Both the position numbers and the translations under genes were made by a program. Of a stretch of DNA of 64,000 bases, positions 3,650 through 36,308 are shown piece after piece (within the stretch, counting starts at the first letter, position 1; each line of letters starts with the position of its first letter). A model generated the notes under the pieces. That model made no database searches. It had not been told where the DNA came from and was given only the letters and a program-made list of their open reading frames with translations. Origin of the DNA: Mobula hypostoma (lineage: Eukaryota); the NCBI RefSeq assembly GCF_963921235.1, contig NC_086107.1:109494001-109558000 (forward strand). The letters are read 5' to 3'.

Positions 3650-4077
3650 GCGTGCTGGCGTTCGGCATCGGACACGTCTTCTACATCGCGGCGCTGGGCT
3701 TGCGGCCGCTGCGGCCTGGCATAGCCCTGCTGCTCCTGCTGCTGGGCGCCGGCCTGTATGGCGCCATCTACCCGTGCCTGGACACCGGCACCCTCTACGC
3801 CCTGGGCGGCTACAGCGTGGCGCTGGTGCTGATGAGCTGGCGCGCCCTCGCCCGGGCCCGCTGCTCGGGGTACCAGCGAAGCTGGGGCGCCCTGAGCGTG
3901 GCGGTCGGCGCCGTCATCTTCATCATCTCCGACTTCGTGCTGGCTGTAGACCGGTTCTGTGTCCCCCTGCCCCATTCCCGCTTCACCGTCATGTCCACGT
4001 ACTATCTGGCACAGATGCTCATCTCCTTCTCAGTACTTGACCACCCTGACCATGACAGCCTGTGGAAGAGACATTAG
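3650..4077 (+). CDS. TMEM86B: Terminal coding exon of TMEM86/YhhN-family lysoplasmalogenase (upstream exons not found in window)
   Basis: Acceptor catcttgctttgcag|G at 3649/3650, GC-rich codons, stop TAG 4075-4077. Translation GVLAFGIGHVFY...MSWRAL...GAVIFIISDFVLAVDRFCVPLPH...MSTYYLAQMLI has the TMEM86 SD and YYxAQ motifs. PLRPG, SDFVLA and PLPH look closer to TMEM86B than TMEM86A from memory, so the paralog call is less certain than the family call. Confidence 0.88.
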
Positions 4078-4810
4078 AGATGTTACTATGACTAGACTAC
4101 TGGCTGCCGATCAGAATGAGTAATATTAATTAAACCTTCATACATAGACCTCTCTCTCTCTTTCTTTGTGGGTCTTCGTACTATAGTACAACACCGAAAC
4201 AACTTTATAAAACCCTGGATGGACCACACTTGGAGTATCGTGTTCATTTCCGACCGCCTCATTATAGGAAGGATGTGGAAGCTTTAGAGAGGGTGCAGGG
4301 GAGATTTCCTCCAAGAGGGCCACAACCTCGTCGTAGGGTTTGGAGGCTTGTGTACCTCAATGACCTGGAGAGCGACGTTGGCTGGAGTCGGGGGCTCGTG
4401 GTAGGGTCACCCATAACAAATAGGTCAAAGGGTAGAGGCCAGACAAAGAGTGGTCCAGATTTGGAGGATCAGCTCAGGGCCAACAACCCTGACCAGTCAA
4501 ACAAGGCTGTTTCGGAAACAGCAATGAAGAGTCCTTCTACACCTGAGTGGCTGTGGATAGAGATGGAGGACCTTCATTGTTGCCCTAAGATCCGGCAGCA
4601 TAGCGAGCGGTGAGTAAGCAAGGAAGAGGTTTACCAGGAGGCTGGCCTGGACTAGAGAGCATGTCTTATGCGGATCGGCTGAGCGAGCTAGGCGTCTTCT
4701 CTTTGGAGCAAAGGAGGTGACCTGATAGAGGAGTACAAGACGTTAAAAGGGCAGAAAAAGGGGGCAAAATCTTAAGGTAATCAGAGGAAAATATAAGGAG
4801 TTGTGAAAGG

Positions 4811-5025
4811 TGAAGCACCTTCAATAACTCCAAAAGACTGAAGTAGGGTAAATACTGAAAGGCTTTTATTCACTGTACAATACGACCTCCATGCTGAGTG
4901 TCTGCCCCCTGACTGAGGGGGCGGAGCAGGGCGAAATCACCTTTATTCAGGGGTCTGTGGGAGGAGCCACAGGGGCATGTCCAGACAGGTAACCCAGTTA
5001 CAACATATATATATGGTTTACCACA
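4811..5025 (-). mobile_element. Probable solo LTR (~215 bp) inserted in a CR1 fragment
   Basis: TG...CA termini, TATA-like and AATAAA motifs on the minus strand, flanks AAAGG/AGAGG (near 5-bp TSD). CR1 sequence resumes on both sides. Confidence 0.5.
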
Positions 5026-6669
5026 AGAGGTAAGATTTTTTTTTACACAGAGCGCGGCGGGTGCAAGGAACTACCCGGGATAATAGTGGAGTCAGATACG
5101 TTAGGGGTATTTAAGAAACTTGCACATCGATGACGGAAAAATGGAGGGCTATGTGAGAAGGAAGTGTTAGAACCCAATCTTTTTTATGCCATGGACCAAT
5201 GCCATTGAGCAGGGGAGCTGTGAACCCCAGGTTGGGAACTCCTGTGTTTGGTAGATCTTAGAGTAGCTTACAAGATCTGTGTACTTTAGTCATCGCCTCC
5301 TAAACACTTCTCAATAAGATGGTGAATTTATAAGAACCCAACATGATCTTTATTAACTGAAAAATGGCCTACATAAGTCAAAGTATCGAGTGCAGCTGTT
5401 GGGATGTTCGCTTGTGTGAGACCTTGGTGAGGCCAAGTTTGGAGTAAGGTCTGAGGTTCTGGTCACCAACCTACAGCAAAGATTGAGAAAAATTACAAGC
5501 ATGTTGCCAGGACCTGAGGACTGAGTTATAGGGAAAGGTTGAACAGGTTAGGACTTTATTCTCTAGAGCGTAGGAGAATGAGGGAGATTAATAGAGGTGT
5601 ACAAAATGCTTCTCATAATCTTCTATATCTCCATCAACTCACTCCTCACCCTCCTTCCCTCCAGGAGAACCAAGCTCAGGTTGTATGATCTCTTCCTATA
5701 ATTAAATTCCTTCAGAGTCAGCTTCACTTCTTTATCGCATGCACATCGAAGCAGTCGTTTGCGTTAACAACCAACACAACCTGAGTGGGTGCCGGGGGCG
5801 GACTGTGAGGGTCGCCACACGTTCTGGCGCGCAGACGTTGCCTACCCACCGTGTGCACAGAACAACACACAAGCGACAGTGCCAGCAGGACAACAGTAAC
5901 AAAACAAACATCAAAGTTGCTGGTGAACGCAGCAGGCCAGGCAGCATCTCTAGGAGGAGGTACAGTCGACGTTTTAGGCCGAGACCCTTCTTCGCACTCT
6001 CTCTACGATACTCCTTAACCGGGGCTAGGTCTTAGAATGTATGTCCCAACCTATGAAGGCAAACATGCCATATGCTATCTTCACCACCCTATCAACCTGT
6101 GCCTACCCTGAAAATATTTAAATCTTCTCTTTGCCGGGGGTTCAATGAGACCATCTGTCACTGCACCCCATCTGTGATCTCTGCTGCCCTCCAATTCCTC
6201 GACCACGCGCTCACGCAATCTCCCCACCACAGCCACGTGTATCTATCACCTGCCAGCTCGTACTCCTTCCCCTCCTCTCCCCGTCTTCCTGTCCTGACTT
6301 CCTCCTCCTCCTTCTTTTCCAGTCCTGACGAAGCGCCTCGCCCTGAAACGTCGACTCTTTATTCCTTCTCCACAGGTGCTGCCTGACCTGCTGAGTCCTC
6401 CAGCATCTTGTGTGCATTTACCAGGATGGCGCTTGGATTAGCGAGCATGTCTTATGAGGGAAAGTTGAGCGAGCTAGGGATTTTCTCTTCGCAGTGAAGG
6501 AGGATGAAAGGAGTCTTGATAGAGATGTACAAGATGATAAGAGACAATGGCTACTATGGAAATGGCTAATACTAGGGGCATAACTTTAAGGTGATTGGAG
6601 GAAAATATAGGGGGGACGTCGTAAATATTTTTTACACACAGAGTGGTGGGCACTTCGGTCCATCTTTTT

Positions 6670-6980
6670 TAGGCATCTGTTAGTCTTGTGAGACCATGGA
6701 TCTGCGCCTGGAAAGTCTTCACTCTCCAGGGCGCAGGCCTGGGCAAGGTTGTATGGAAGACCAGCAGTTGCCCATGCTGCAAGTCTCCCCTCTCCACGAC
6801 ACCGATGTTGCCCAAGGGAAGGGCATGAGGACCCATACAGCTTGGCACCAGTGTCATCGCAGAGCACTGTGTGATTAAGTGCCTTGCTCAAGGACACAAC
6901 AGGTTCCCTCAGCTGGGGCTCGAACTCACAACCTTCAGGTCGCTAGTTGAATGCCTTAACCACTTGGCCACGTGCCCACA
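6670..6980 (-). mobile_element. tRNA-derived SINE, family A (~310 bp)
   Basis: Reverse complement of GTGGGCACGTGGCCAAGTGGTTAAGGC...GAGTTCGAGCCCC (A/B boxes); near-identical to copies at 11820, 20986 and 52322. Confidence 0.8.
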
Positions 6981-6989
6981 CGGTCCATC

Positions 6990-8336: not shown

Positions 8337-8352
8337 CCACCAGGGGGCAGTG
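8337..8352 (+). promoter_or_regulatory. CTCF consensus motif
   Basis: CCACCAGGGGGCAGTG matches the CTCF core CCASYAGRKGGCRS; motif only, binding untested. Confidence 0.5.
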
Positions 8353-12128: not shown

Positions 12129-13464
12129 TTAATAGGCTCGATTTCAAGGACTCTACAACTCATGTTCTCAATATTATTTATTTATTTTGTACTTAACACC
12201 GTTTGCCTTTGTTTGCTGGCTGGTTGTCAGTCTTTGCTTGTGTGCAGAAGTTAACTGATCCTATTATATTTCTTTATATCTACTATGAAAACCTGCAAGA
12301 AAATGAATTTCAGGGTAGTATATGGTGCCATATACACGGTGCTGTCCATCGTGTCTGACAATGACAGGAAACCTGTGCGGGAGAGTATTTAAACTGGAAA
12401 AGCTGTTCCACCCTCTTGACCTCAGAAGTCCGGGTCCAGTGGTACGAACAAGTGTCAGAAACTGGGGTCTTCCTTGATTGCAATGGATGACCATGATGTC
12501 TTCTGTGCCTTTGCTCTCTGTGGAGGGTTGCAGAACCGCAATGGATCTCACTGTAGATCTCATCTGCCCAGTTCGGGCAGAGATGACTTTGCATTCTAGG
12601 ACAGGCTTGTCCCTATCTCACCGGGGTACGAGGCTGCCAGCTGCCCTCACCTGGTTTAGCCCACCTGTTCAGGCAGTGTGCACACGTGAACTTTGATTAT
12701 AAGTTTTATTTTAAACTTTGAACTTTGAATAAACAGAGGACGCCGTGGGCCAATGCTACACAGCAACTTTACACAGTGAAGCAGCACAAGGTACTTCCCA
12801 GTTGAACAATTGAAGGAAGTTTTCGAGTCTCAATATAGATTGTGGGTTTCCTCTGCGCCCTCTCAGTGACCTTCACATCCTTCCTAAAGTGACCTGAACT
12901 GGTCAAAATACTCCGGTAGCTACTGAAGACTTTGCTCCGTACAAGTTGAATATAAACCTCCCACCCACATTCTGGGCAGGGCACTCCTTCTTCATAATGT
13001 AGGTGGGAGGGTCAGCAAGTTCGCGGGTGATACCAAAATTGGTGGAGCTGTGGATAGTGTAGAAAACTGGCAAAGGACACAGCAAGATATCAATCAGTCG
13101 CAGATGTGGGCAGAAAAATGGCAGATGGAGTTTAAGCCAAATAAATGTGAGGTGTTGCACCCTGGTAGGGCGAACGCAAGGAGACAGTACACTGTTAAGA
13201 GCAAGATCCTAAACAGTGTTGCTGAGCAAAGAGATCTTGGGATCCAAATTCATAGCCCCTGGAATTGGCTATACGGGTCGATGAGGCTTACGAAATGCTC
13301 GTTTTTATTAGTCAAGGCATTGAGTTCAAAACTCAGAAGGTTACGTTGCAACTTTATAAAACTCTGGTTAGGCCACACCTGGAGTATTGCTTACAGTTCT
13401 GGTCACCCCACTGTAGGAAGGACGTTGAGGCTTTGGAGAGGCTGCAGAAGAGGTTTACCAGGAT

Positions 13465-15215
13465 ACCAGGAAGGTCTCAAAGCTCTACGCTTCTTTTTGG
13501 ATTCCAGACCTAATCAGTTCCCCTCTACCACCACTCTGCTCCGTCTAGCAGAATTAGTCCTTACTCTTAATAATTTCTCCTTTTGCTCCTCCCATTTCCT
13601 CCAAACTAAAGGTGTAGCTATGGGCACCCGTATGGGTCCTAGCTATGCCTGCCTTTTTGTTGGGTTTGTGGAACAATCTATGTTCCGTGCCTATTCTGGT
13701 ATCTGTCCCCCACTTTTCCTTCGCTACATCGACGACTGCATTGGCGCTGCTTCCTGCACGCATGCAGAACTCGTTGACTTTATTAACTTTGCCTCCAACT
13801 TTCACCCTGCCCTCAAGTTTACCTGGTCCATTTCTGACACCTCCCTCCCCTTTCTAGATCTTTCTGTCTCTGTCTCTGGAGACAGCTTATCCACTGATGT
13901 CTACTATAAGCCTACTGACTCTCACAGCTAGCTGGACTATTCCTCTTCTCACCCTGTCTCTTGCAAAAACGCCATCCCCTTCTCGCAATTCCTCCGTCTC
14001 CGCCGCATCTGCTCTCAGGATGAGGCTTTTCATTCTAGGACGAGGGAGATGTCTTCATTTTTTAAAGAAAGGGGTTTCCCTTCCTCCACTATCAACTCTG
14101 CTCTTAAACGCATCTCCCCCATTTCACGTACATCTGCTCTCACTCCATCCTCCCACCACCCCACTAGGAATAGGGTTCCCCTGGTCCTCACCTACCACCC
14201 CACCAGCCTCCGGGTCCAACATATTATTCTCCGTAACTTCCGCCACCTCCAACGGGATCCCACCACTAAGCATATCTTTCCCTCCCCGCCTCTCTCTGCA
14301 TTCCGCAGGGATCGCTCCCTACACAACTCCCTTGTCCATTCGTCCCCCCCATCCCTCCCCACTGATCTCCCTCCTGGCACTTATCCGTGTAAGCGGAACA
14401 AGTGCTACACATGCCCTTACACTTCCTCCCTTACCACCATTCAGGGCCCCAAACAGTCCTTCCAGGTGAGGCATCACTTCACCTGTGAGTCGACTGGGGT
14501 GATATACTGCGTCCGGTGCTCCCGATGTGGCCTTTTATATATTGGTGAGACCCGACGCAGACTGGGAGACCGCTTTGCTGAACATCTACGCTCTGTCCGC
14601 CAGAGAAAGCAGGATCTCCCAGTGGCCACACATTTTAATTCCACATCCCATTCCCATTCTGACATGTCTATCCACGGCCTCCTCTACTGTAAAGATGAAG
14701 CCACACTCAGGTTGGAGGAACAACACCTTATATTCCGTCTGGGTAGCCTCCAACCTGATGGCATGAACATTGACTTCTCTAACTTCCGCTAATGCCCCAC
14801 CTCCCCCTCGTACCCCAGCTGTTACTCATTTTAATGCACACATTCTTTCTCTCACTCTCCTTTTTCTCCCTCTGTCCCTCTGAATATACCTCTTGCCCAT
14901 CCTCGGTCACCCCCCCCTTGTCTTTCTTCCCGGACCTCCTGTCCCATGATCCTCTCGTATCCCCTTTTGCCAATCACCTGTCCAGCTCTCGGCTCTATCC
15001 CTCCCCCTCCTGTCTTCTCCTATCATCTTGCATCTCCCCCTCCCCCTCCAGCTTTCAAATCCCTTACTCACTCTTCCTTCAGTTAGTCCTGACGAAGGGT
15101 CTCGGCCTGAAACGTCGACTGCGCCTCTTCCTACAGATGCTGCCTGGCCTGCTGCGTTCACCAGCAACTTTGATGTATGTTGCTTGAATTTCCAGCATCT
15201 GCAGAATTCCTGTTG
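13465..15215 (+). mobile_element. Penelope-like element, 5'-truncated (RT plus GIY-YIG endonuclease plus 3' pseudo-LTR with hammerhead motif)
   Basis: GVAMGTRMGPSYA, LRYIDD, LPFLD, YYKPT (RT); GVIYCVRCSRCGLLYIGETRRRLGDRFAEH (GIY-YIG). One in-frame stop at 13929-13931. TSD TTTACCAGGAT at 13454-13464 and 15216-15226. Confidence 0.92.
15085..15120 (+). ncRNA. Minimal type I hammerhead ribozyme motif in Penelope pseudo-LTR
   Basis: AGTC-CTGACGA-agggtctcggcct-GAAA-CGTC-GACT: helix I AGTC/GACT, CUGANGA and GAAA cores, GUC cleavage triplet, minimal palindromic helix III. Confidence 0.8.
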
Positions 15216-20900: not shown

Positions 20901-20985
20901 CAGTTGCCCTGGAAGTTTTGGAGAGGGTGCGGAGGAGGTTTACCAGGATGCTGCCTGGATTAAAGAGCATGTCTTATGAGGGTCA

Positions 20986-22336: not shown

Positions 22337-22400
22337 ATTGGCTGCATCCTACCTTACAGACACCTGCAGCCTCCCTTCCCCTGTCCCAGGTCTATAAAAG
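22337..22400 (+). promoter_or_regulatory. Core promoter of the CGRP-like gene: inverted CCAAT box (ATTGG 22337-22341) and TATA box (TATAAAAG 22393-22400)
   Basis: Canonical TATAAAAG in non-repetitive sequence, about 85 bp upstream of a strong splice donor (ACAG|gtaagg at 22483/22484). Confidence 0.75.
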
Positions 22401-22422
22401 AGCCTGGGCTACAGCTCAGGGA

Positions 22423-22483
22423 ACAGAGACTCCCAGCTCACTGAGAAATACAAGCCTTCGAGCCCCTAGAGGGACACTGACAG
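22423..22483 (+). other. Non-coding exon 1 (5'UTR) of the CGRP-like gene; start approximate
   Basis: Start inferred ~30 nt downstream of the TATA; contains no ATG; ends at consensus donor CAG|GTAAGG. CALCA and IAPP also have a non-coding first exon. Confidence 0.7.
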
Positions 22484-22529
22484 GTAAGGAGTGGCACTTC
22501 CTAACTCATACTTCCCATCCTGTCAATGG

Positions 22530-22565
22530 TGAGTGAGTGAGAGAGAGATGGTGAGATAGAATGTG

Positions 22566-22604
<39 letters not shown>

Positions 22605-22900
22605 TAGAGAGAGAGAGAGACTGAGAGAGAAAAGGGACACAGAGACACAGAAAGAGAGGCAGGCAGAATGTGAGAGAAAGAGACACACAGAGAAACAGAG
22701 AGACTGGGAGAGAAAAGAGACAGAAAGAGAGAGACAGAGGAAGAGAAAAAGACATAATTTGTGTGAGAAAGAGAGATAAAGAGATAGAGTGAGAGAGAGA
22801 GACACAAAGACAGAGAGACAGAGATAGAGAGAGAGAGAGAGAGAGGGACATGGAGGCACACGGGGAGAAAGGCAGACAAAGAGAGAGAGAAAGAGAAAAG
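22530..22900 (+). repeat. (GA)n-rich compound microsatellite at the start of intron 1
   Basis: Direct reading of GA/GACA repeats. Confidence 0.9.
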
Positions 22901-25290: not shown

Positions 25291-26369
25291 GCTGGCTGGC
25301 CTGAGATTTCCTAGGAACATGGGTCTTCTCCCTTACTACCATCAGGGAAGAGGCAAAAGAGCCTAAAGACCCACACTCAGCATTTCAGGAACAGCTTTAG
25401 GATCAATAGCTCGAGAGGAAGATCAAGCGGCTTTCTCCCAGGCTGGAAATGTCTGAGACAAGGGGGCATTCCCCTCGCTGTCTGTAAGGAGTTTGTACGT
25501 TCTCCCCAAGACCGCGTGGGTTTCCTCCTGGTGCTCTGGTTTCCTCCCACAGTCCAAAGACTGTGGTAGGTTAATTGGTCATTGTAAATTGTCCCTGATT
25601 AGGCTAGGGTTAGGCTGGGGGGTGCTGCTAGAAGAGCTGGAGGGGCCCATTCCGCACGGTATCTCAGTAAAAACAAATATAATTTAAGGTGATTGGAAGG
25701 AAATAATAAGGCGGGGAATGTCAGAGGTAGGTTTTGTTATGCAGAGAGTGGTGGGTACATGGAATGCACTGCCAGGGATGGTGGTGGAGCAGATACAACA
25801 TATGGACACTTAAGAACACAAGAGACCCTGCAGATGCTGGAAATCCAGACACAAAATGCTGGAGGAACTCAGCAGGTCAGGCAGCGTCTACGGAGAGGAA
25901 TAAACAGTCCTCGTTTTGGGACAAGACCCTTCATCAGGACTTGAAGGAAAGGGAGGAGAAGCCACAAAAAGAAGGTAGGCATTTAAGAGCCTCTTAGACT
26001 GGCACAGAGATGAAAGAAAAACGGAGAGAAGGTTTAGATTGATCTTGGAGTAGGTTAAAGGGCTGGCATAACATTGTGGGCTGAACAGCCTGTACTGTTT
26101 ATGTTCTAACAGATTCTACCTCTCTGCCATCAGATTTCTGAAAGGTCTATGACCACCTCCTTGCTATTCCTCTTTTGCACGAATTCTTTCTGTCTTGCAC
26201 CGTACTGCTGCCACAGAACAACAAATTTAATGGTGTACAATATGTCAGTGATAATAAACCTGATTGTAATTCTAATATTGACCAGGAGTCTCAAATTTCC
26301 ATTTTATTGGTTTGTTTGATTCGGGAGTCTTTGCCAAGGGGCAGGTCTCTCTGTTAGCTCCTGGGTAAA

Positions 26370-27000
26370 AGGCACAAGGTAGTGATGTGCTCTCTTTTAC
26401 GTCCTCCAATTTGTTTCGGGCCTCCTCTACACGGGTGAGACCCGAAGTTTATTGGGTGACCACTTTGTCGAGCACCTCCGCTCCAGCCACCAAAAGTGGT
26501 ATTTCCCAGTGGCCAAACGTTTTAATTCCTATCCCTGTTCCCGTTGTAACATGTCAGTTCCTGGCCTCCTCCTCTGCCTCGATGAAGCCACTCTGAGGGT
26601 GCAGGAGAAACCCCTCATATCCCATCTGGGTAGCCTCCAACCCGATGGCATGGACACTGATTTCTCCTTCCAGTAATTGTTTCCTTCTTCTTCTATTCCC
26701 CACTCCTCACCTCCTCACCTGCCTATCACCTCCCCTGGGTCCCCTCCTCCCTCCCTTTTCCTCCTGTCCTAGCAGATTCCTCCTTCTCCAACCCTTTACC
26801 TTTTCCATCCACCTAGCTTCACCTATCACCTCCTAGCCACCTCCTTCTTCACCCCCCCCACCCCCACACCTTTTCATTCCGGCATCTTCCCCCTTCCTTC
26901 TCAGTCCTGAAGAAGGGTCTCGGCCTGAAACAGCGACCGATCATTCATTTCCATGGCTGCTGCCCGACCTGCTGGGTTCCTCCAGCATTTTGTGTGTGAC
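26370..27000 (+). mobile_element. Degenerate Penelope-like 3' end directly upstream of the signal-peptide exon
   Basis: LGDHFVEH...LGSLQPDGM homology with 14550-14790; hammerhead-like CTGAAGA...GAAAC at 26907-26930. Confidence 0.75.
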
Positions 27001-27027
27001 GCTCTCTCTCTCTATTTTCAGCGAACG

Positions 27028-27110
27028 ATGCTGACGATGCAACTCCCCCTCTCGCTGATCCTGGCGTGCGCGATGGTGGCGGCGATGGATTCAGACCATT
27101 ACTCCCTCAG
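27028..27110 (+). CDS. CGRP-like precursor, first coding exon (signal peptide MLTMQLPLSLILACAMVAAMDSDHYSL-R)
   Basis: Acceptor ctctctctctctattttcag|cgaacg ATG (exon starts 27022), hydrophobic signal-like core, donor AG|gtgagt. 83 coding nt ending in phase 2 within an Arg codon, as in CALCA exon 2. Confidence 0.85.
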
Positions 27111-27339
27111 GTGAGTTATCCTCCGTCTCTGTGTTTCCCTTGCCCCCCCCCCCCCCCCCACGACCCCCTCAATTCCTGACCCTGATCGGTAGCTGGTGGC
27201 CAGTACAGGCTAGATGGGCTGAAGGGCTCATCTCCTTGTGTAAAGAATGATTGGCTATGACTGCAGGGCTGAGTGATCTCCAGGTAGCTGAAGTCTGAGG
27301 TGACTGTAAAAAGAGGCAAAGGACGTCGTTCTTCCTTGT

Positions 27340-27970
27340 GGGAACAAAACCTTTGTGAGACACACACAAAGTATTGGAGGAACTCAGCTGGTCAGGTGGC
27401 ATCTATGGAGGGAAAAAAACATTATTTTGGGCTGAGACCTTTCCTCGGCACTGGAAAGGAGAGGGGGAAGAAGGTGGGGAGTGGGGAAGGGAGTTCAAGC
27501 AGGCAGGAGATAGGTGAGAGACCAGATGAGGGGAAAGGTAGGGCTGGTGGTGATGAAGTAAGAAACTGGAAGGGGATAGGTGGAAGAAGTAAAGGGCTGA
27601 AGAAGAAGGAATCTGATAGGAGAAGACAGTGGACTTTGGGAGAAAGGGAAGGAGGAGGGGAAGCAGAGGAAGGTGATGGGCAGGTGAGGAGGAGGGAAGG
27701 GGTGACAGCGTCACTCGAATGGGGAAATTACGGAACGTTGGAGATATCGATGTTCATGCCATCAGGTTGGAGGCTACCCAGACGGAATACAAGATGTTGC
27801 TCCTCCACCCTGAGTTTGGCCTCATCGTGGCAGTAGAGGAAGCCTTCAACAAGACAGGTCAGAATGGGAGTGGGAAGTCAAAATGAAGCAGGTAGCCACC
27901 AGGAGACCCTGTCTTCTGTGGTGGACAGGGCAAAGGTTCTCTCCTCATTCTGCTTCAGGCCTCTCCAGTG
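27340..27970 (-). mobile_element. Degenerate Penelope-like 3' end
   Basis: Reverse complement of the EATLRVEEQHLVFRLGSLQPDGMNID segment plus purine-rich 3'UTR. Confidence 0.75.
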
Positions 27971-29102
27971 TAGGGTCAGAGGTTAGGAGGTGTTACGCTA
28001 AAGGATAGCAAATCACTTGGGTCTGCCGAGCTTCCGTTGAGCTCAGCCATGCTGACATTTAATTACCTGACAGTTGGCAGGGGCTATTGGACCACTACGT
28101 GCCTCTCAACCGAGTCTAGCCAATATTACCAGAGACACAGCAATCACAGACCAGGGTTCGATTCCCACCGCTGCCTGTAAGGAATCTCTACGCACTCCCC
28201 ATGACAGTGTGGATTTCCTCAGGGAGATCTGATCTCCTCCCACAGCCCAATGACGTACAGTTAGGGTTAGGGAGTTGTGAGTAAGCTTTGTTGGCACTGG
28301 AAGCATGGCGCCATTTACGGGCCGCGCCCAGCACCACCCTAGCTTTTTGATTTGATGCAAATGACGCATTTCTCTATACCTTTCAATGTGTTGATGTACA
28401 TGTGACAAATACAGCCGATCTTTTAGCGTCCTGCCGAAGGGTTTCAGCCCAAAATATCGACTGTGCTTTTTCTCCCTAGATGCTGCCTGTCCTGCTGAGT
28501 TCCTCCAGCTTTCTGTGTGTGTCTTTTAGTTTATCTTTTTATCCGTGTGGGGGGATAAACTCAGCATTTTAGGATGAGTCCTCCCATCAGGACTCAGCCC
28601 AGAACGTCGACTGCTTATTCCCCTCCTTAGATGCTGCCCGAGCAGCCGAGTTCCTCCACCATTTTACGCGTGTTTCTCGATATTTCCAGCACCTTTTGTG
28701 TTTACGGAGGTGAAAACCCAAAGATTCTTCCCTCTTCCCCCACCAATTCCTCTTTCTGCTCCACCTAAGCTGTGCAGAACAGAAATCTGAATCGTTTCAC
28801 TTGCCTAATAACGCCCCGGCTGATGTATATTGAGACATTGTTGGAGGGGAAGGTTGAATTTTGTTATGCTGGACAGTATTTAAGACACAGTTCACAATTT
28901 CGGGAAGTCCCAAAGAACTTCAGAGCGAATGAGGTAACTATGAAACTGGAGTGCTATTTTAACGTAGGAAGTGTGGTAACTGGGTCGCTCACACGCTATG
29001 TTCCCACAACTGATGTGATAATGACCAGATGATCCGGCTACTGATGCCAAAAAAAAAAGGCAGGAGTGGATCTGTGGGTCAAGCAGAATTTGGGGTGGAT
29101 GA

Positions 29103-29580
29103 TTTTTTTTAATTTCAAAATATACTTTATTCAAAAATATAATTATATTCAATAACTTCCCATCCTTTACATACGTTCCCATTATAGTCAGTACATATCC
29201 GTACTTATGGCCAGCCACGTGGCACTCTAGTTGTTCACCTTACCACATCGTTGTTGAGGGGTATACTCCCCGCCACCCGACCCCTCCCACTCCCGCGGGT
29301 GAAGAAACCTATACTGTGCTCCTTCCCCACCGGGCCCTTGCGGTGGCTGCACCGAGTTTCAGTGCGTCCCTCAGCACGTACTCCTGCAGCCGAGAATGTG
29401 CCAGTCGGCAGCATTCTCCCACGGACATCTCCATGTGCTGGTAGATCATCAAGTTTCGGGCCGACCAAAGAGCATCTTTCACCGAGTTGATGATCTGCCA
29501 GCAGCACCGGATGTTGGTCTCCGTGTGCGTCCTCGGGAACAGCCCGTAGATCAGAGAGTCCTCTGTTACGCAGCTGCTGC
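29103..29580 (-). mobile_element. L1/Tx1-like LINE 3' end
   Basis: Minus translation SCVTEDSLIYGLFP...CCWQIINSVKDALWSARN...LQEYVLRD typical of the Tx1/L1 ORF2 C-terminus; AATAAA and A-tail on minus near 29103-29132. Confidence 0.7.
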
Positions 29581-29843
29581 TGATGTTTCAGATTGAGACC
29601 CTGCGTCAGGACACGACCCAAAACATCAACCTCCCCGCATGCTACCTGACCCACTGAGTACCTCCACTGACTTGTTTGCCTTTCCTCCAGAGTACATACA
29701 TTTTCTTAGAAGCTTGCAAAGTTTCTGCATGTCACTTGAAACTTTGGCCAGCTTCTATAGGTGCACAGTGGAGTGTCTTCCAACTGACTGCACCACAGCC
29801 TGGTATGGAAACGCCAATGCCCAGGGATGGACATGTCTGCGGG

Positions 29844-30263
29844 TGTAATGAGCTCTTTGGGCCTGTGTGGGGCGCCGGAGAGGCACGGGCGCCAAGGCTT
29901 TTGGAGCTCCTGAATTGGTTAATTATTGTTTAATGAGAATCGTTTATTCATCTAAAGTTCCTTGAGTTTTTCTTGAGCGACCCGCACTTTGTTATTGGTC
30001 TCCTTGTGCTTTATGTTTAAGCTTGTTAAGTTCATATTTATAGGCTTAGGAATTCCGTGTTATTTGTATTATTTAAGCGGAAGTCCAAATTGCGCTGATC
30101 GCGGGGTCCTAGTTTTAAGAATGTTGCTTCTCGCGGTGTTGCTCGGCCGAGCTGCCGGTGTTATTTTGGAATTTTTTCAAATAAATTCTTGCCGCCGTCT
30201 CTTCATCGGAGTCTGTCCTTCCCCCGCGCTTGGGTCCAGATATTGCCAGCGGACGTCGTGATA
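29844..30263 (+). mobile_element. Possible solo LTR interrupting an L2/Rex-type LINE fragment (29690-30740)
   Basis: Begins TGTAATG, internal TATTTAAG and AATAAA, ends GTGATA (degenerate); LINE sequence continues on both sides; no clean TSD. Confidence 0.4.
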
Positions 30264-31789
30264 AGAGAGCGTGGACACAGCCCAGCCCATCACAGGCAAG
30301 GCCCCCGCTCCCCACCACCACCGAGCACATTTACAAGGAGCACTGCCACGAGAAAGCAGCCGCCATGATCACAGATCGTCACCGTCCGGGCCGTGCTCTC
30401 TTCTCGCTGCTGCCTTCGGGAAGGAGGTACAGGAGCCTTAGGTCCCACGCCACCAGGTTCAGGGTCAGTTATTACCCCTCAACCATCAGGCTCCTGAACC
30501 AGAGTGAATAACCTCACTCACCTCAACACTGAACTGATCCCACAACCTATAGACTCACTTTCAAGGACCTGACAACTCGTGTTCTCAGTATTATTTCCTT
30601 ATTTATTTTCATAATTTGTCTTATTTTGCACATTATTTGTCAGTCTTCTTTTGTGTATAGTTTTTCATAAATTCTATTGTATTTCTTTATTTTCCTGTAA
30701 ATGCCCACAAGAAAATGAATCTCAGGGTAGTATAGAGTGACATGCTCGGTGACCATTTAAGGTATCGCCTACACAAAATACTCTGCAGATGCTGGGGTCA
30801 AAGCAACACTCACAACACGCTGGAGGAAGTCAGCAGGTCGGGCAGCATCCGTGGAAACCATCAGTCAACGTTTTGGGCCGAGGCCCTTTGTCAGGACTGT
30901 AGAGGGAAGGGGCAGAGGCCCTATAAAGAAGGTGGGGGGAGGGTGGGAAGGAGAAGGCTGGTAGGTTCCAGGTGAAAAACCAGTAAGGGGAAAGATAAAG
31001 GGGTGGGGGAGGGGAAGCAGGGAGGGGATAGGCAGGAAATAGTAGTCATAGTATTCATAGTCATACTTTATTGATCCCAGGGGAAATTGGTTACGGGGGA
31101 AAGCACAATGGGTAGTAGAAGGAAGCGGAACGATGAGGGAGGTGATAGGCAGCTGGGGGAGGGGGCAGAGTGAAATAGGGATGGGGAAGGGAGGGGGAGG
31201 GAATTACTGGAAGTTGGAGAATTCTATGTTCATACCAAAATACCATATCACTGATCTAACACTTGTCTGCTTCTCTGTCTCTGCTCTGCCACCTCTCCAT
31301 TTCTCACCCTCTTGCGACGACGACAATTCATTTCCTCCCACAGACACTACTTGACCTGTTGGGTTCCTCCAGCAGAGAGCTTGCTACTTCCGGCATCTGC
31401 CCTCTCTGGTATCTCCAGCCCCGTTTCTTTCCCTCCTTGCAAGTCGGTCTCTGATCAATAATTAAGATTCAAGATTCAAGTTCAAAGTTCAAAGTAAATT
31501 TATTATCAAAGTGCATATACGTCACCCTGCGATTCATTTTCTTGAGGGCATTCTCAATAAATCTATAGAAATATAACTGAGAGAGAATCAATGAAAGACT
31601 GCACCAACTAGGGCGTTCAACCAGTGTGCAAAAGACAACAAACTGTGCAAATAGAAAAAGAAAGAAAGAATAATAATAATAAACTAAGCAATAAATATTG
31701 AGAACATGCGATAAAGATGATACTGCAGTATTAAAGCCAGGACCAACAGGCTATGGGACAGCTTCTTTCTACAAGCTTTCTACAATGTA

Positions 31790-33005
31790 ACTATGGAAAT
31801 GGACATGGGAAAGCCAGTGGATGTAGTGTACCTGGACTTTCAGAAAACCTTCGATAAGGTCCCACATTGGAGGTTAGTGTGCAAAATTAGAGCAAATGGT
31901 ATTGGGGGTAGGGTACTGACTTGGATAGAAAATTGGTTGGCAGACAGGAAACAAAGAGTAGGGATTAATGGGTCCTTTTCAGAATGGCAGGCGGTGACTA
32001 GTGGGGTACCGCAAGGCTCGGTGCTGGGACCGCAGCTATTTACAATATACATTAATGATTTAGATGAAGGGATTAAAAGTAACATTAGCAAATTTGCCGA
32101 TGACACAAAACTGGGTGGCAGTGTGAAATGTGAGGAGGATGTTATGAGAATGCAGGGTGACTTGGACAGGTTGGGTGAGTGGGCAAGTGCATGGCAGATG
32201 CAGTTTAATGTGGATAAATGTGAGGTTATCCACTTTGGTGGGAAGAACAGGAAGGCAGATTACTATCTGAATGGTGTCAAGTTAGGAAAAGAGTAAGTAC
32301 TACGAGATCTAGGTGTCCTTGTTCATCAGTCACTGAAAGTAAACATGTAGGTACAGCAGGCAGTGAAGAAAGCTAATGGCATGCTGGCCTTGATAACAAG
32401 AGGAGCTGAGTATAGGAGCAAAGAGGTCCTTCTGCAGTTGTAAAGGGCCCTGGTGAGACCACACCTGGAGTCTCCAAATTTGAGGAAGGACATTCTTGCT
32501 ATTGAGGGAGTGCAGCGTAGGTTCATGAAGTTAATTCCCGGGATGGCGGGAATGTCATATATTGAAAGATTGAAGCGACTGGGGTTGTATACACTGGAAT
32601 TTAGAAGGATGAGAGGGGATCTGATTGAAACATATAAGATTATTAAGGGATTGGACACGCTAGAGGCAGGAAACATGTTCCCGATGTTGGGGGAGTCCAG
32701 AATCAGAGGCCACAGTTTAAGAATAAGGGGTAGACAATTTAGAACGGAGTTGAGGAAAAACTTTCTCACACAGAGGGCTGTGGTTCTGTGGAATGCTCTG
32801 CCTCAGAAGGCAGTGGAGGCTAATTCTCTGGATTCTTTCAAGAAAGAGTTAAATAGAGCGCTTAAAGATAGTGGAATCAAAGGTTATGGGGATAAGGCAG
32901 GAACTGGGTACTGATTGTGGATGATCAGCCATGATCACAGTGAATGGCAGTGCTGGCTCGAAGGGCTGAATGGCCTACTCCTGCACCTATTGTCTGTTGT
33001 CCATT
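31790..33005 (+). mobile_element. Young CR1 LINE, same subfamily as 9154-10130, with stop codons
   Basis: YLDFQKTFDKVPH, SGVPQGSVLGP, FADDTK; nearly identical to 9154-10130 over the overlap. Confidence 0.92.
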
Positions 33006-34376
33006 GTCATTAGACTTTTAAATTCACATGTCTGTACGGGGTCATAACACAAAGGTTTTAACTTCCTCATGTTCTGGGATGGTTGTAAGATTTAAATAAA
33101 TTCTAATTTTTTTGAGTGAAGAATCCTAGAAAGTGAATGCATAGGTTGTGGGAACGTTTCAATGATGGGGGAAGTGAAGTTATTCCCGTTGGTCAGATGT
33201 ACATGGAAACATACAGTGAAATGTATTGTTTGTATTAACAACCAACACACCTGAGGGCGTGCAGAGGCAGCCCACAAGTGTTGCCACACAGTCTGGCACC
33301 ACCATACCCACAGTGCTCAGCAGAACGACACGGAGCACGAAAAGGAGCAAATAACAGTCGCGAAGGCAAGTCCCGTTCCTGCCGCCCGCCCACTCGTCCA
33401 CAGATACATACAGTCCTTTATCTCCAGGCTCCAGCCCCCCAGGCTCCAACTGTGGAAGTGTCCATAACACCACAGGACATTCGAGCAGAATCTGGCCACT
33501 TGGCCCATCAATTCTGTTCCACCAAGGCTGATATAGTCCCCTTCTCAACCCCATTCTCCTCCCTTCTCCCCGTAAGCTTTGACGCTGTGAGGTAATCAAG
33601 GACTAACAGCCATCACTTTAAATGACTTGTATGTATGAAACAAGATGTTGTTGAGGCTGGTAGAACATCCACATTTGAGAGACATTTGGATCAGTACGTA
33701 TTTCCTGACTATTCTGTCCACTGACAGTCTGTGTATCCATCCATCCATCTCCCTGCTCTTCTTAACTCTCTGTCCATCTCTCTCACTCTTTCTCTCTGTC
33801 TGTTCATCTCTCTCTCCCTGTCCATTTCTCCCTCGTGCATCTCTTTATCTGTTCATCTCTCCCTCTCCGTCTCTGTCTCTCTGGCTTCATCAATCCTCTC
33901 CCTGTGACTCTGTCACAATGTCTACCCCCTTGTCGAGACCTGCCCACCGTGTCTCTGTCAGTGCAGTGTTCCCTCAGGACGGAGGGATGGCATCAGAGAG
34001 GACCGGGGAGGGGTGTCGCTGTCGCACAGCGGTTAGCGTGACGACGGTGCAGCTCCCAGCGTCTCTGTACATCCCCCCTGTGAGATGCGTGGGTTTCCCC
34101 CCGGGAGCTCTGGATTCCTCCGAAGTTGTGCCGGGCAGATTAATTCGTCATTGTGAATTGTCCCGTGGTTAGGTTAGGGTTAATTGGGGTTGTGCGGTTA
34201 AATCAGGGTCATTGGGTTCGCTGGGCAGTGTGAAAGGCCAATTCCACTCTGTATCTCAATTAATAAAATAAAAACATACCAACAGCCTCTGACGTGGGCG
34301 AGACTTCTGCTGATGTGTTGAATGCTTTGATTTTTACACCACAGCAAGTGACAATCAACCCTTCAATGTGTTTCAG

Positions 34377-34514
34377 ATCCCCGGGCAGCCCAAACCTGGG
34401 GAAGGTTCTCATTCGCCATGTGGACGGACGTTATTTACCAGGACTGAGGCAGAGGCAGCTGCCCCAGCCTGTGGCAGGCTACGTGCAGGATCATCATAAC
34501 CAGAGACTGAGACG
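34377..34514 (+). CDS. CGRP-like precursor, second coding exon (propeptide R-SPGSPNLGKVLIRHVDGRYLPGLRQRQLPQPVAGYVQDHHNQRLR-R)
   Basis: Acceptor atgtgtttcag|A, donor CG|gtatct (weaker). 138 nt, phase 2/2, open frame; joins both flanking exons in frame. Size is close to CALCA exon 3 (~141 nt). Confidence 0.75.
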
Positions 34515-34644
34515 GTATCTCCCATCTATCAACATCTCCCTCTCCTTCTGTTTGTCTGCACTCCTGCCTGTTTGTCACCCCTCTCTTCCTTTGCTTATCC
34601 GTCTCCTTCAGTCACGTCGCCATTTTTCCATCTGCCTTGCTCTC

Positions 34645-35462
34645 TCCCTGACTGCTCACCTGTGTCCCCTCTCTCCCTAACTGCTCACCTGTGTCCCCTC
34701 TCTCCCTGACTGCTCACCTGTGTCCCCTCTCTCCCTAACTGCTCACCTGTGTCCCCTCTCTCCCTGACTGCTCACCTGTGTCCCCCCTCTCCCTGACTGC
34801 TCACCTGTGTCCCCTCTCCCCCGGCTGCTCACCTGTGTCCCCCCTCTCCCCGACTGCTCACCTGTGTCCCCTCTCCCCCTGGCTGCTCACCTGTGTCCCC
34901 CCTCCCCCGACTGCTCACCTGTGTCCCCCTTCCCCCGGCTGCACACCTGTGTCCCCCTTCCCCCGGCTGCACACCTGTGTCCCCCCTCTCCCCCGGCTGC
35001 ACACCTGTGTCCCCCCTCTCCCCCGGCTGCACACCTGTGTCCCCCCTCTCCCCCGGAAGCTCACCTGTGTCCCCCCTCTCCCCCGGCTGCTCACCTGTGT
35101 CCCCCCTCCCCCGACTGCTCACCTGTGTCCCCCCTCCCACGGCTGCACACCTGTGTCCCCCCTCCCACGGCTGCACACCTGTGTCCCCCTCCCCCGGCTG
35201 CACACCTGTGTCCCCCCTCTCCCCCGGCTGCACACCTGTGTCCCCCCTCTCCCCCGGCAGCTCACCTGTGTCCCCCCTCTCCCCCGGCTGCTCACCTGTG
35301 TCCCCCCTCTCCCCCGGCTGCTCACCTGTGTCCCCTCACTCCCCCGACTGCTCACCTGTGTCCCCCCTCTCCCGACTGCTCACCTGTGTCCCCCCTCTCC
35401 CGGCTGCTCACCTGTGTCCCCCCTCTCCCGACTGCTCACCTGTGTCCCCTCTCTCCCTGACT
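34645..35462 (+). repeat. C-rich minisatellite, ~28-30 bp unit CTGCTCACCTGTGTCCCCCCTCTCCCCGG, roughly 28 copies
   Basis: Direct reading; produces the spurious Pro/Cys-rich ORFs at 34778-35509. Confidence 0.95.
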
Positions 35463-35659
35463 CTGTTTTAGTGTCTGTTTTCTCTTTCTGCCTGCCTGGT
35501 TCTTCCTGACTTTCATCTCTGTGTTCTTTCTCCCTCTCTGTGTCTCTCTGCCCTAACGTTTCTCTGTCTGCAACGCTGACAATATTTCTCTGCCTATGTG
35601 TGTCTCTTTGCCATAGTGTTCGACCGCCGGTTCAACTATCTGCCTGCCTGTCACATCCC

Positions 35660-36010
35660 TGATCCTTCTCTCTCACTTTCACTCTCTCTCTCCCCTTTCT
35701 CTCTCTCCTCCTCTTTCTCTCCCTTTCTCACTCCCTTTTTCTCTCTCCCCTTCCTCTCCTCCCTTTCTCTCCCCTTCCTCTCCTCTCTCTCCCCTGCCTC
35801 TCTCTCTCTCTCTCTCTTGCCCTCTCCCTCTCTCCTTCTCCCCTGCTCTTTTTCTTCCTCTCCTCTCCCATGTTTTTCTTCTCCTTCTCCACCCCGCCTC
35901 CCTCTTTCGCTCTTGCTCTCTCTGTCGCTTCTGAGAACCCGTGCCACCAGTTTTGGTTATAATTTTTTTCTCACTTTGTGCTTCTGTGTGTGTGTGTGTG
36001 TGTGTGTGTC
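35660..36010 (+). repeat. (CT)-rich polypyrimidine tract and (TG)n microsatellite upstream of the CGRP exon
   Basis: Direct reading. Confidence 0.85.
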
Positions 36011-36139
36011 TTCTTTACAGTCCATCTATCAGGCTGCATCCTCTCTCCCTGTCCCGCCACTGCCCTGATCGTCTCAGCCCGCACCCCCCATTTCAGACCA
36101 TTTTAACCCCCGCGCTCCTCTCCCCGATATCTGCTGCAG

Positions 36140-36308
36140 GCTCCTCCCGCTCCACAAGCAGAAGCGTTCCTGTAACACGGCAACGTGCGTGACCATCCGC
36201 CTGGCCAACTTCCTCAGCCGCTCCGGGGCAATGGGCAGCAGGAGCTTCATTCCCACCGACATCGGGGCGAAAGCGTTTGGGAGGAAGCGTCGCGGCCTTC
36301 CAATGTAG
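36140..36308 (+). CDS. CGRP-like precursor, mature-peptide exon: LLPLHKQKR-SCNTATCVTIRLANFLSRSGAMGSRSFIPTDIGAKAF-GRKRR-GLPM*
   Basis: Acceptor ctgctgcag|G (phase 2). KR cleavage site, C2-C7 ring (CNTATC), 37-aa peptide at 36168-36278 ending in Phe, amidation Gly plus RKRR, stop TAG 36306-36308. Clear CGRP-family layout; orthology unresolved, so no symbol given. Confidence 0.95.

What the first reader, a model, noticed from the sequence alone, without database searches (positions are those of the whole stretch)
3650..36308. Linkage to a TMEM86B-like gene suggests a whole-genome-duplication ohnolog lost in mammals
Seen: the CGRP-like promoter lies ~18 kb downstream of the TMEM86 last exon, same strand, with no recognisable gene between. 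Established: human TMEM86A, CALCA/CALCB and ADM lie on 11p15, IAPP on 12p12, and TMEM86B and ADM5 on 19q13, where I know of no CALC/IAPP-type gene. Inference: if this is TMEM86B, the locus could be the 19q13-paralogon copy of the CALC/IAPP ancestor, retained in cartilaginous fish.
Basis: inference. Interest (0 to 1): 0.8.

Follow-up and report, generated by a model that had tools for sequence, protein, structure and literature searches.

The report
Extra CGRP gene beside ray TMEM86B
This ray genome carries a second CGRP hormone gene, separate from its calcitonin/CGRP gene, set among genes whose human counterparts lie on chromosome 19q13, so it is probably an ancient duplicate that mammals have lost.

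Summary
A TMEM86-family last exon (3650-4077, +) is followed 18.3 kb later, on the same strand, by a TATA-box promoter (22393). That promoter heads a calcitonin-less CGRP gene: exons 27022-27110, 34377-34514 and 36140-36329. Assembled contigs from four public runs join the last two exons.

The genome has a separate canonical calcitonin/CGRP gene 67 Mb away on the same contig, and three amylin-like genes on another contig. In 6 of 6 other cartilaginous fishes compared, CALCA and this "CGRP2" lie on different contigs. In 3 of 3, CGRP2 and the TMEM86 gene share a contig.

The TMEM86 gene groups with bony-vertebrate TMEM86B in every tree, but weakly (bootstrap 44-52%); it never grouped with TMEM86A. 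The same part of the contig (81-113 Mb) holds the only HSPBP1-like and DNAAF3-like hits, a PPP6R gene, a troponin gene, an adrenomedullin-like gene and the only AP-2 alpha hit. These match human 19q13.33-q13.42.

Only two R-Ras-type genes were found. One lies 42 kb from CGRP2, the other 557 kb from CALCA.

Timing before the split from bony vertebrates is inferred, not shown.

The parts
3650..4077 (+). Last coding exon, with stop codon, of a TMEM86-family (YhhN, lysoplasmalogenase-like) gene. It is the probable TMEM86B ortholog. The 5' exons lie upstream of the window at C45:109485268 and 109487436-109487708.
   Evidence: Pfam YhhN E 2.7e-28. 87% identical to an annotated stingray protein, P0001. 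5' exons located. Trees.
22338..22400 (+). Putative core promoter of the CGRP2 gene: inverted CCAAT box (gattgg) and a TATAAAAG box.
   Evidence: Read directly from the sequence. No sequence similarity to the CALCA paralog's promoter. Function is inferred.
22420..22483 (+). Putative non-coding exon 1. The start is approximate; the exon ends at a gacag|gtaagg donor.
   Evidence: Sequence. Contig X3 record 19 has 163 nt upstream of exon 3, which is 74 nt more than exon 2 accounts for, but these were not placed. Inferred.
27022..27110 (+). Exon 2: 5' UTR end, ATG at 27028, signal peptide MLTMQLPLSLILACAMVAAMDSDHYSL.
   Evidence: tblastn of annotated precursor P0008, 28 of 28 residues identical. 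Splice sites read.
31793..31873 (+). Alternative first exon of annotated isoform X2 (P0009). It lies inside a reverse-transcriptase ORF and is probably an annotation artefact.
   Evidence: tblastn 27 of 27 identical. ORF 31721-32293 matches RVT_1 at E 1.6e-21.
34377..34514 (+). Exon 3: N-terminal propeptide, unrelated in sequence to the conserved CALCA propeptide.
   Evidence: tblastn. Sequence. Contigs of 3 runs join 34513 to 36139. Alignment A1.
34640..35457 (.). Minisatellite of 28-30 bp units, about 28 copies, in the intron where CALCA carries its calcitonin exon. It is followed by CT-rich simple sequence up to 35890.
   Evidence: Tandem Repeats Finder. Sequence. No calcitonin-type ring motif anywhere in the window.
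36140..36329 (+). CGRP exon: KR cleavage site, 37-aa peptide with Cys2-Cys7, Gly amidation donor, RKRR, stop at 36306-36308, then a cag|gtagag donor at 36329/36330 leading to a 3' UTR exon that was not located.
   Evidence: Pfam 62.5 bits. Sequence. Contigs end this block at 36329 and continue for about 524 nt elsewhere.

Best explanation
The window holds the 3' end of the ray's TMEM86B ortholog, followed by a second, calcitonin-less CGRP gene that I call CGRP2.

The gene. CGRP2 has a TATA promoter, a non-coding exon 1, a signal-peptide exon, a propeptide exon, a CGRP exon and a 3' UTR exon. It encodes a 129-aa precursor. Cleavage at KR and RKRR, plus amidation from the Gly, would release a 37-aa, disulfide-ringed, Phe-amidated CGRP. 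Such a peptide should act on CLR/RAMP-type receptors; that last step is inferred.

Its origin. CGRP2 is not CALCA and not amylin. It lies in a chromosome block orthologous to human 19q13.33-q13.42. That block is paralogous to the block carrying CALCA, RRAS2 and TMEM86A, which matches human 11p15. The most likely origin is therefore the early vertebrate genome duplications, with the copy kept in elasmobranchs and lost from the mammalian 19q13 region.
For: Shown:
- Gene model: precursor P0008 maps at 100% identity to three exons.
- Splicing: contigs from 3 of 4 laid runs (X1, X2, X3; 2 studies) join 34513 to 36139, and the block ends at 36329 in X1, X3 and X5 (36327, at the record's end, in X2).
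- Family: Pfam Calc_CGRP_IAPP 62.5 bits.
- Other family members: a separate four-exon calcitonin/CGRP gene lies at C45:42.750-42.754 Mb, and three amylin-like exons lie on C66.
- Orthologs: CGRP2 orthologs were returned from 7 elasmobranch species, rays and sharks.
- Linkage: CGRP2 shares its contig with the TMEM86 ortholog in 3 of 3 comparable species. It lies on a different contig from CALCA in 6 of 6.
- CGRP tree: the CGRP2 clade has support 100/100. Chondrichthyan CALCA, including chimaera, forms a clade that excludes it at 95/87.
- Propeptide: the CALCA propeptide is conserved from chimaera to mammals, and the CGRP2 propeptide is unrelated.
- Age: third-codon identity between the paralog pairs is 34-36%, which is saturated.
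- TMEM86 trees: the window clade plus TMEM86B is the best topology in three trees. Support is FastTree 99, then 44/74, then 52/84. It joined TMEM86A, the C22 clade or any other pairing in 0 of 1000 bootstrap trees.
- Synteny on C45 at 81-113 Mb: the only Fes1 (HSPBP1) hit at 81.29; SAPS (PPP6R) at 81.42-81.50; ADM-like at 82.92; the only DUF4470 (DNAAF3) hit at 91.03, next to troponin at 91.10; TMEM86 at 109.49; CGRP2 at 109.52-109.53; R-Ras-type at 109.572; the only AP-2 alpha hit at 112.78.
- Paralogous set on C45 at 36-53 Mb: SAPS 36.7, ADM-like 37.95, R-Ras2-like 42.18-42.19, CALCA 42.75, troponins 48.5 and 48.9, TMEM86A 52.58.
- R-Ras: only two R-Ras-type genes were detected with two different exons as query.
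- Human reference: the human order TNNT1-TNNI3-DNAAF3-SYT5-PTPRH-TMEM86B-PPP6R1-HSPBP1 is quoted in PMC9339297 (passage read).

Other human map positions (RRAS, ADM5 and AP2A1 at 19q13.33; RRAS2 and CALCA at 11p15.2) are recalled, not taken from a call.
Against: - The TMEM86B grouping is weak (bootstrap 44-52%). AU tests reject neither window clade plus TMEM86A (p 0.33) nor TMEM86B plus the C22 clade (p 0.12).
- RPL28 is eight genes from HSPBP1 in human. Here it lies on C22, 1.1 Mb from another TMEM86 pair, and not on C45.
- The R-Ras-type neighbour is more like human R-Ras2 than R-Ras in all three exons: 63.5 vs 50.9, 57.8 vs 57.3 and 52.1 vs 30.0 bits.
- The 19q13-type markers are spread over 31 Mb. 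The CGRP2 contig in other species is only 13-43 Mb in several of them, so a shared ancestral chromosome for all markers is not shown.
- The CGRP tree has 56 columns and does not place CGRP2 relative to bony vertebrates. CGRP2 joins one anchovy sequence at 94/85.
- All 8 of 8 CGRP2-type hits are elasmobranch. None came from chimaera or bony fishes.
- ADM subtypes are unresolved.
- Only one AP-2 alpha gene and two PPP6R genes were found, so which human paralog each represents was not tested.
Confidence: 0.65

Rival explanations
1. An early segmental copy rather than a genome-duplication ohnolog. In the chondrichthyan stem lineage, a segment carrying RRAS2 and CALCA was copied into the 19q13-type chromosome. 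The calcitonin exon and the original RRAS were then lost.
For: The R-Ras-type neighbour scores higher against human R-Ras2 than R-Ras in 3 of 3 exons. CGRP2 was returned only from elasmobranchs, 8 of 8 hits. The mature peptides share the PTD-GA motif.
Against: This needs both the loss of the resident RRAS and an insertion into the very block where RRAS belongs. No third R-Ras-type gene was found. Synonymous sites are saturated in both gene pairs. Chimaera CALCA groups with elasmobranch CALCA and excludes CGRP2 at 95/87. The propeptide is wholly divergent. The PTD-GA motif also occurs in anchovy and some mammalian sequences.
Confidence: 0.17
2. It is an ohnolog, but of another paralogon. The window's TMEM86 gene would then be a third or fourth TMEM86 ohnolog, and the true TMEM86B ortholog would be the tandem pair on C22 next to RPL28. 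The CGRP2 block would not be the 19q13 counterpart.
For: RPL28 lies 1.1 Mb from the C22 TMEM86 pair. The AU test does not reject TMEM86B plus the C22 clade (p 0.12).
Against: TMEM86B plus the C22 clade appeared in 0 of 1000 bootstrap trees. The C22 clade joined TMEM86A in 884 of 1000. The human genes on both sides of TMEM86B have their only or nearest ray matches on C45 at 81-91 Mb, not on C22: TNNT1/TNNI3/DNAAF3 on one side and PPP6R1/HSPBP1 on the other.
Confidence: 0.1
3. A young, lineage-specific CGRP duplicate, analogous to mammalian CALCB, that happens to lie near TMEM86.
For: The peptide is CGRP-like: 64% identical to the CALCA-encoded CGRP exon. The gene lacks a calcitonin exon, as CALCB does functionally.
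Against: It is present in both sharks and rays. It lies on a different contig from CALCA in 6 of 6 species. Third-codon identity is 36%. The propeptide is unrelated, whereas mammalian CALCB keeps the CALCA propeptide. A paired R-Ras-type neighbour is present.
Confidence: 0.03

Closest known systems
CALCA (calcitonin/CGRP-alpha gene)
   Same: Same Pfam family. A 37-aa peptide with a Cys2-Cys7 ring and a C-terminal Phe-amide signal. The same exon plan: non-coding exon 1, signal exon, propeptide exon, CGRP exon with the stop codon, then a 3' UTR exon. A TATA promoter.
   Different: No calcitonin exon; a minisatellite occupies that intron. The propeptide is unrelated to the CALCA propeptide, which is conserved from chimaera to mammals. 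It lies on a different chromosome in 6 of 6 other species. The true CALCA of this genome is at C45:42.75 Mb.
Mammalian CALCB (CGRP-beta) and CRSP genes
   Same: Dedicated CGRP-type genes that make no calcitonin. Automated annotation names the shark and ray proteins 'CGRP 1-like', 'CGRP 2-like' or 'CRSP 2-like'.
   Different: CALCB and CRSP are tandem copies beside CALCA and keep its propeptide (PMC6283891 section 8, read). CGRP2 is unlinked to CALCA in other species and has its own propeptide.
IAPP (amylin), the recognised ohnolog of CALCA
   Same: A calcitonin-less family member on a paralogous chromosome that also carries a troponin cluster (C66).
   Different: Amylin ends in Tyr-amide and has a different mid-region. 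The ray has three amylin-like exons on C66. In the tree CGRP2 groups with CGRPs, not with these.
Takei/Ogoshi proto-chromosome model of the CGRP/adrenomedullin family
   Same: The model pairs AM1 with CGRP and AM2 with amylin on two proto-chromosomes. It leaves AM5 on an unidentified third one with no CGRP-type partner (PMC6283891 section 8, read). The ray block with an ADM-like gene plus CGRP2 would fill that slot.
   Different: The ADM-like gene at C45:82.92 Mb was not typed as AM5 here. The review states that no CGRP gene had been reported from cartilaginous fish as of 2018.

Membership tests
Calcitonin/CGRP/IAPP peptide family (Pfam PF00214) | Profile match above the curated cut-off | tested here: met
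   62.5 bits against a cut-off of 22.3; 59.5 bits in the genome scan.
Calcitonin/CGRP/IAPP peptide family (Pfam PF00214) | N-terminal Cys-x4-Cys ring after a dibasic site, and a C-terminal Gly plus basic amidation signal | tested here: met
   KR-SCNTATC...KAF-GRKRR read from the sequence. Processing itself was not tested.
CGRP subtype | 37 residues ending in Phe-amide, with Ala5, Thr6, Arg11 and Arg18 conserved | tested here: met
   Counted from the sequence. These columns are invariant or nearly so in alignment A1. The importance of Ala5 and Thr6 comes from the title of PMC3904261 (search listing only).
CALCA ortholog | Calcitonin exon between the propeptide exon and the CGRP exon | tested here: not met
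   No calcitonin-type motif in the window. The intron at 34515-36139 is minisatellite and CT-rich sequence. Spliced contigs skip it. The calcitonin exon sits at C45:42752389.
CALCA ortholog | Conserved N-terminal propeptide | tested here: not met
   Alignment A1: the propeptide is conserved in 11 of 11 CALCA/CALCB rows and absent in 7 of 7 CGRP2 rows.
TMEM86B ortholog | Groups with bony-vertebrate TMEM86B in a family tree | tested here: inconclusive
   This is the best topology in 3 of 3 trees, but bootstrap support is only 44-52%. AU tests do not reject the alternatives.
TMEM86B ortholog | Shared linkage with the human 19q13.42 neighbours | tested here: met
   HSPBP1-like, PPP6R, DNAAF3-like and troponin hits lie on the same contig 18-28 Mb away. 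They are not adjacent. RPL28 is on C22.
2R ohnolog of CALCA/IAPP | Lies in a multi-gene block paralogous to the CALCA block | tested here: met
   Six families have one member in each C45 block: SAPS, ADM-like, R-Ras-type, CALC, troponin and TMEM86.
2R ohnolog of CALCA/IAPP | The duplication predates the split of cartilaginous and bony vertebrates | tested here: inconclusive
   The tree puts it before the chimaera-elasmobranch split at 95/87, but leaves the bony-vertebrate node unresolved.
2R ohnolog of CALCA/IAPP | Ortholog, or its trace, at the matching locus of other vertebrate lineages | not testable with these tools
   No other vertebrate genome can be searched here. The protein search returned elasmobranchs only.

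The most novel reading that the evidence does not exclude
CGRP2 is the missing CGRP-type partner of the AM5 paralogon. On this reading the early vertebrate carried a linked R-Ras / CALC / ADM / TMEM86 / troponin / PPP6R block. The genome duplications gave at least three CALC-type lineages: CALCA, amylin and CGRP2. Elasmobranchs still express the third as a distinct hormone with its own propeptide, and possibly its own receptor preference, while bony vertebrates lost it.
Probability: 0.5. Interest if true: 0.7.

Novelty: new member of a known kind. Interest (0 to 1): 0.6.

Why it matters
CGRP, amylin and adrenomedullin are drug targets in migraine, diabetes and vascular disease. Their family history is reconstructed mainly from mammals and teleosts.

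A 2018 review (PMC6283891, sections 8 and 9 read) says that no CGRP gene had been reported from cartilaginous fish. It also says the chromosomal layout of the family there is unknown, and that AM5 sits on an unidentified proto-chromosome with no CGRP-type partner.

A third CALC-type lineage in the 19q13-type block would complete that model. It would add a natural CGRP variant for receptor pharmacology. It would also give a dated example of ohnolog loss on the fast-evolving human 19q13 region.

The gene is already auto-annotated under misleading names ("CGRP 1-like", "CRSP 2-like", next to "TMEM86A-like"). What is new is its evolutionary status, not its existence.

Tried and rejected
- RNA runs: no RNA holder listed. 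All 7 runs are "RNA?" by guess, with word shares of 0.07-0.15. I use only what their contigs bridge. Parts without cover are not interpreted.
- Exon finding by paralog comparison: tblastx of the CALCA paralog locus against the window found only the CGRP exon.
- Promoter comparison: only chance-level short matches to 13 kb around the CALCA start, so "CGRP-like" promoter similarity is not supported by sequence.
- ADM subtype: both protein-atlas calls gave only "Pro-adrenomedullin" or calcitonin-family labels at 0.90-0.92. AM1, AM2 and AM5 cannot be told apart this way.
Only 30 kb on each side was read. Upstream held nothing but the TMEM86 5' exons and retroelement or GDSL-like pieces.
- Earlier findings of this scan: nothing on record.
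- Literature: six searches (for the CGRP gene; for a TMEM86A/B tree) found no paper describing a second CGRP gene or a third CALC-type ohnolog in cartilaginous fish, and no published TMEM86A/B tree. Subscription-only papers are not covered, and I did not open any supplements.
- The PTD-GA motif shared by the two ray CGRPs: I considered it a mark of recent common origin. I dropped it because it also occurs in anchovy and some mammalian CALCB rows.

Full report
**What is in the window**

The window is C45:109494001-109558000 of a 3.48-Gb genome.

Positions 3650-4077 (+) are a terminal coding exon. It follows a cag acceptor and ends in a stop codon. Its 141 aa match Pfam YhhN at E 2.7e-28. The two 5' coding exons of the same gene lie 8.7 and 6.3 kb upstream of the window start.

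The only C-x-T-x-T-C motif in all six frames is at 36171-36188. The exon there reads KR-SCNTATCVTIRLANFLSRSGAMGSRSFIPTDIGAKAF-GRKRRGLPM-stop. It scores 62.5 bits against Pfam Calc_CGRP_IAPP (cut-off 22.3).

**Gene model of the CGRP gene ("CGRP2")**

A protein search with the exon returned 8 proteins, all elasmobranch. One is a 129-aa precursor that is 100% identical over the exon (P0008). P0008 maps to three exons:

- 27022-27110, with the ATG at 27028 and the signal peptide.
- 34377-34514, the propeptide.
- 36140 onward, the CGRP exon.

Contigs of four public runs were laid on 20001-40000. The runs come from 2 studies and their kind is only guessed to be RNA. Three contigs join 34513 directly to 36139. 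All end that block at 36327-36329, at a cag|gtagag donor, and continue into sequence that was not placed. One has about 524 nt 3' and 163 nt 5' of exon 3. The model is therefore a spliced transcript with a further 3' UTR exon.

The 1.6-kb intron where CALCA carries its calcitonin exon holds a 28-30-bp minisatellite (34640-35457) and CT-rich repeats. No calcitonin-type ring motif exists in the window.

At 22393-22400 there is a TATAAAAG box. An inverted CCAAT lies 55 nt upstream of it and a gacag|gtaagg donor lies at 22483/22484. This fits a short non-coding exon 1, 18.3 kb downstream of the TMEM86 stop codon. That assignment is inferred. The region has no sequence similarity to the CALCA paralog's promoter.

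I scanned 113 of the 158 window ORFs of 92 aa or more. Only retroelement fragments matched Pfam.

**It is not CALCA and not amylin**

A genome-wide scan with PF00214 gave 13 matches.

- C45:42.750-42.754 Mb holds a four-exon gene. It includes a calcitonin exon ([38 protein letters not shown]) and its own CGRP exon.
- Three amylin-like exons ending in Y/F-GKR lie on C66 at 10.83-11.0 Mb.
- Adrenomedullin-like exons lie at C45:37.95 and 82.92 Mb, with weaker copies at 87.2 Mb.

**Linkage across species**

The protein tables report contig lengths, which let me compare species.

- CGRP2 and the TMEM86 ortholog share a contig in 3 of 3 species where both were returned: 42,863,366, 94,862,116 and 20,256,265 bp.
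- CALCA lies on a different contig from CGRP2 or the TMEM86 ortholog in 6 of 6 comparable species.

In the window's genome both genes share one 117-Mb contig. I read this as a lineage-specific fusion.

**Age of CGRP2**

- The CALCA propeptide is conserved from chimaera to mammals, including mammalian CALCB. The CGRP2 propeptide cannot be aligned to it apart from the LRS junction.
- In a 24-row, 56-column tree, CGRP2 is a clade at 100/100. Chondrichthyan CALCA, including chimaera, is a clade at 95/87 that excludes CGRP2.
- The position relative to bony vertebrates is unresolved. CGRP2 joins one anchovy row at 94/85 in that tree, and one amylin-like row is misplaced on a very long branch.
- Third-codon identity between the two ray CGRP exons is 36%.

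**Which TMEM86 is it?**

The genome has last-exon paralogs at C45:52.58 Mb, C22:130.48 and 130.53 Mb, and C36:1.1 Mb.

I searched a library of representatives clustered at 50% identity and looked up names for 30 representatives. Results by tree:

| Tree | Rows | Window clade + TMEM86B | Notes |
|---|---|---|---|
| FastTree | 120 | SH-like 99 | Window clade is 8 elasmobranch rows |
| IQ-TREE | 44 | best topology, 44/74; 444 of 1000 bootstraps | Window clade + TMEM86A in 0 of 1000 |
| IQ-TREE | 35 | best topology, 52/84; 520 of 1000 bootstraps | Nine unnamed or long rows left out |

In all trees the C45:52.58 Mb copy groups with true TMEM86A. In the 35-row tree, window clade + TMEM86A, window clade + C22 clade, TMEM86B + C22 clade and TMEM86A + TMEM86B each appeared in 0 of 1000 bootstraps. 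TMEM86A + C22 clade appeared in 884.

AU tests do not reject window clade + TMEM86A (p 0.33) or TMEM86B + C22 clade (p 0.12). The tree therefore favours TMEM86B but does not prove it. The "TMEM86A-like" names in automated annotation reflect similarity only.

**Synteny within the genome**

| Marker | 36-53 Mb block | 81-113 Mb block |
|---|---|---|
| SAPS (PPP6R) | 36.67-36.69 | 81.42-81.50 |
| Fes1 (HSPBP1), single hit | none | 81.287 |
| ADM-like | 37.95 | 82.92 |
| R-Ras-type | 42.183-42.193 | 109.572-109.575 |
| CALC-type | CALCA 42.75 | CGRP2 109.52-109.53 |
| DUF4470 (DNAAF3), single hit | none | 91.034 |
| Troponin | 48.46, 48.88 | 91.10 |
| TMEM86 | TMEM86A 52.58 | window gene 109.49 |
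| AP-2 alpha C-domain, single hit | none | 112.78 |

Troponin exons also lie on C52 and on C66, the amylin contig.

The 30 kb downstream of the window holds three Ras-family exons on the minus strand, 42 kb beyond the CGRP stop codon. Their best solved relatives are R-Ras2 and then R-Ras. Genome searches with two of these exons found only one other R-Ras-type gene, at C45:42.183-42.193 Mb, 557 kb from CALCA. The next hits read as other Ras subfamilies (the M-Ras label is from recall).

The human order TNNT1-TNNI3-DNAAF3-SYT5-PTPRH-TMEM86B-PPP6R1-HSPBP1-...-RPL28 is quoted in PMC9339297 (passage read). Genes on both sides of human TMEM86B therefore have their ray matches on the 81-113 Mb part of C45. 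The 36-53 Mb part carries one paralog of each multi-member family together with CALCA and TMEM86A.

The human positions of RRAS, ADM5 and AP2A1 (19q13.33) and of RRAS2 and CALCA (11p15.2) are recalled. PMC8743587 only lists RRAS2, COPB1, PSMA1, PDE3B, CYP2R1 and INSC together in its abbreviation lists and a figure legend (passages read).

**Evidence that does not fit**

- RPL28's intron-containing gene is on C22, 1.1 Mb from the C22 TMEM86 pair.
- The R-Ras-type neighbour looks more like R-Ras2 than R-Ras.
- The 19q13-type markers span 31 Mb, and I could not show that they share the small CGRP2 chromosome of other species.
- ADM subtypes are unresolved.
- No CGRP2 was returned from chimaera or bony vertebrates.

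**Conclusion**

The best reading (0.65) is that CGRP2 is a third CALC-type lineage. It arose with the block duplications that also gave TMEM86A/B, RRAS2/RRAS and the troponin and PPP6R paralogs. It was kept in elasmobranchs and is absent from the human 19q13 region.

The main rival (0.17) is an early chondrichthyan segmental copy of the RRAS2-CALCA pair.

A 2018 review states that no CGRP gene had been reported from cartilaginous fish. It leaves AM5 without a CGRP-type partner (PMC6283891, sections 8 and 9 read). Five further full-text searches found no later description.

Noticed in passing
window 31721-32293 (+), exon 31793-31873: The alternative first exon of the annotated isoform X2 (P0009) is part of a reverse-transcriptase ORF (RVT_1, E 1.6e-21). 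That isoform is probably an annotation artefact.
   Followed up: partly
window 34640-35457 and 35667-35890: A minisatellite of 28-30 bp units, about 28 copies, plus CT-rich simple repeats fill the intron where CALCA has its calcitonin exon. The region is strongly C/T-skewed (GC skew -0.41, AT skew -0.47 for 34001-36000).
   Followed up: partly
window 22540-22900: A long GA-rich simple repeat starts about 60 nt after the putative exon-1 donor.
   Followed up: no
window 12927-14789 (+): Adjacent ORFs with weak RVT_1 and GIY-YIG matches, the domain pair typical of Penelope-like retroelements (that association is recalled). An Exo_endo_phos_2 fragment lies at 20341-20856 (-), and ALKBH8_N-type fragments lie at 62372-63193 (-) and in the flanks.
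   Followed up: no
G000:C22:130483838-130484224 and 130530929-130531306 (L020, L021): A tandem pair of TMEM86 genes forms a clade seen only in elasmobranchs among the rows sampled. It is sister to TMEM86A in 884 of 1000 bootstraps. This may be another ohnolog missing from bony vertebrates. RPL28 lies 1.1 Mb away.
   Followed up: partly
G000:C36:1105340-1105714 (L022): A fifth, divergent TMEM86-like exon groups with lamprey 'TMEM86B-like' and amphioxus proteins (93/87 and 93/93). This suggests an older lineage of the family.
   Followed up: partly
G000:C66:10833384-10996404 (L008, L014, L009): Three amylin-like exons lie within 165 kb. Two end in NSY-GKR. The third is divergent (ring CKISTC, ending DSF-GKR).
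   Followed up: no
G000:C45:87201663-87275348 (L038-L040): Three further adrenomedullin-like exon copies. One has an intact CALMGC ring and a Pro-Gly-Lys-Lys end. All three alignments include a TGA.
   Followed up: no
L048:8114-8476 (-), i.e. C45:109492114-109492476, inside the TMEM86 intron: An ORF with a GDSL-like lipase match (32.5 bits, just under the 32.9 cut-off), next to a 593-aa ORF with a weak reverse-transcriptase match. It may be a LINE with an esterase-type ORF.
   Followed up: no
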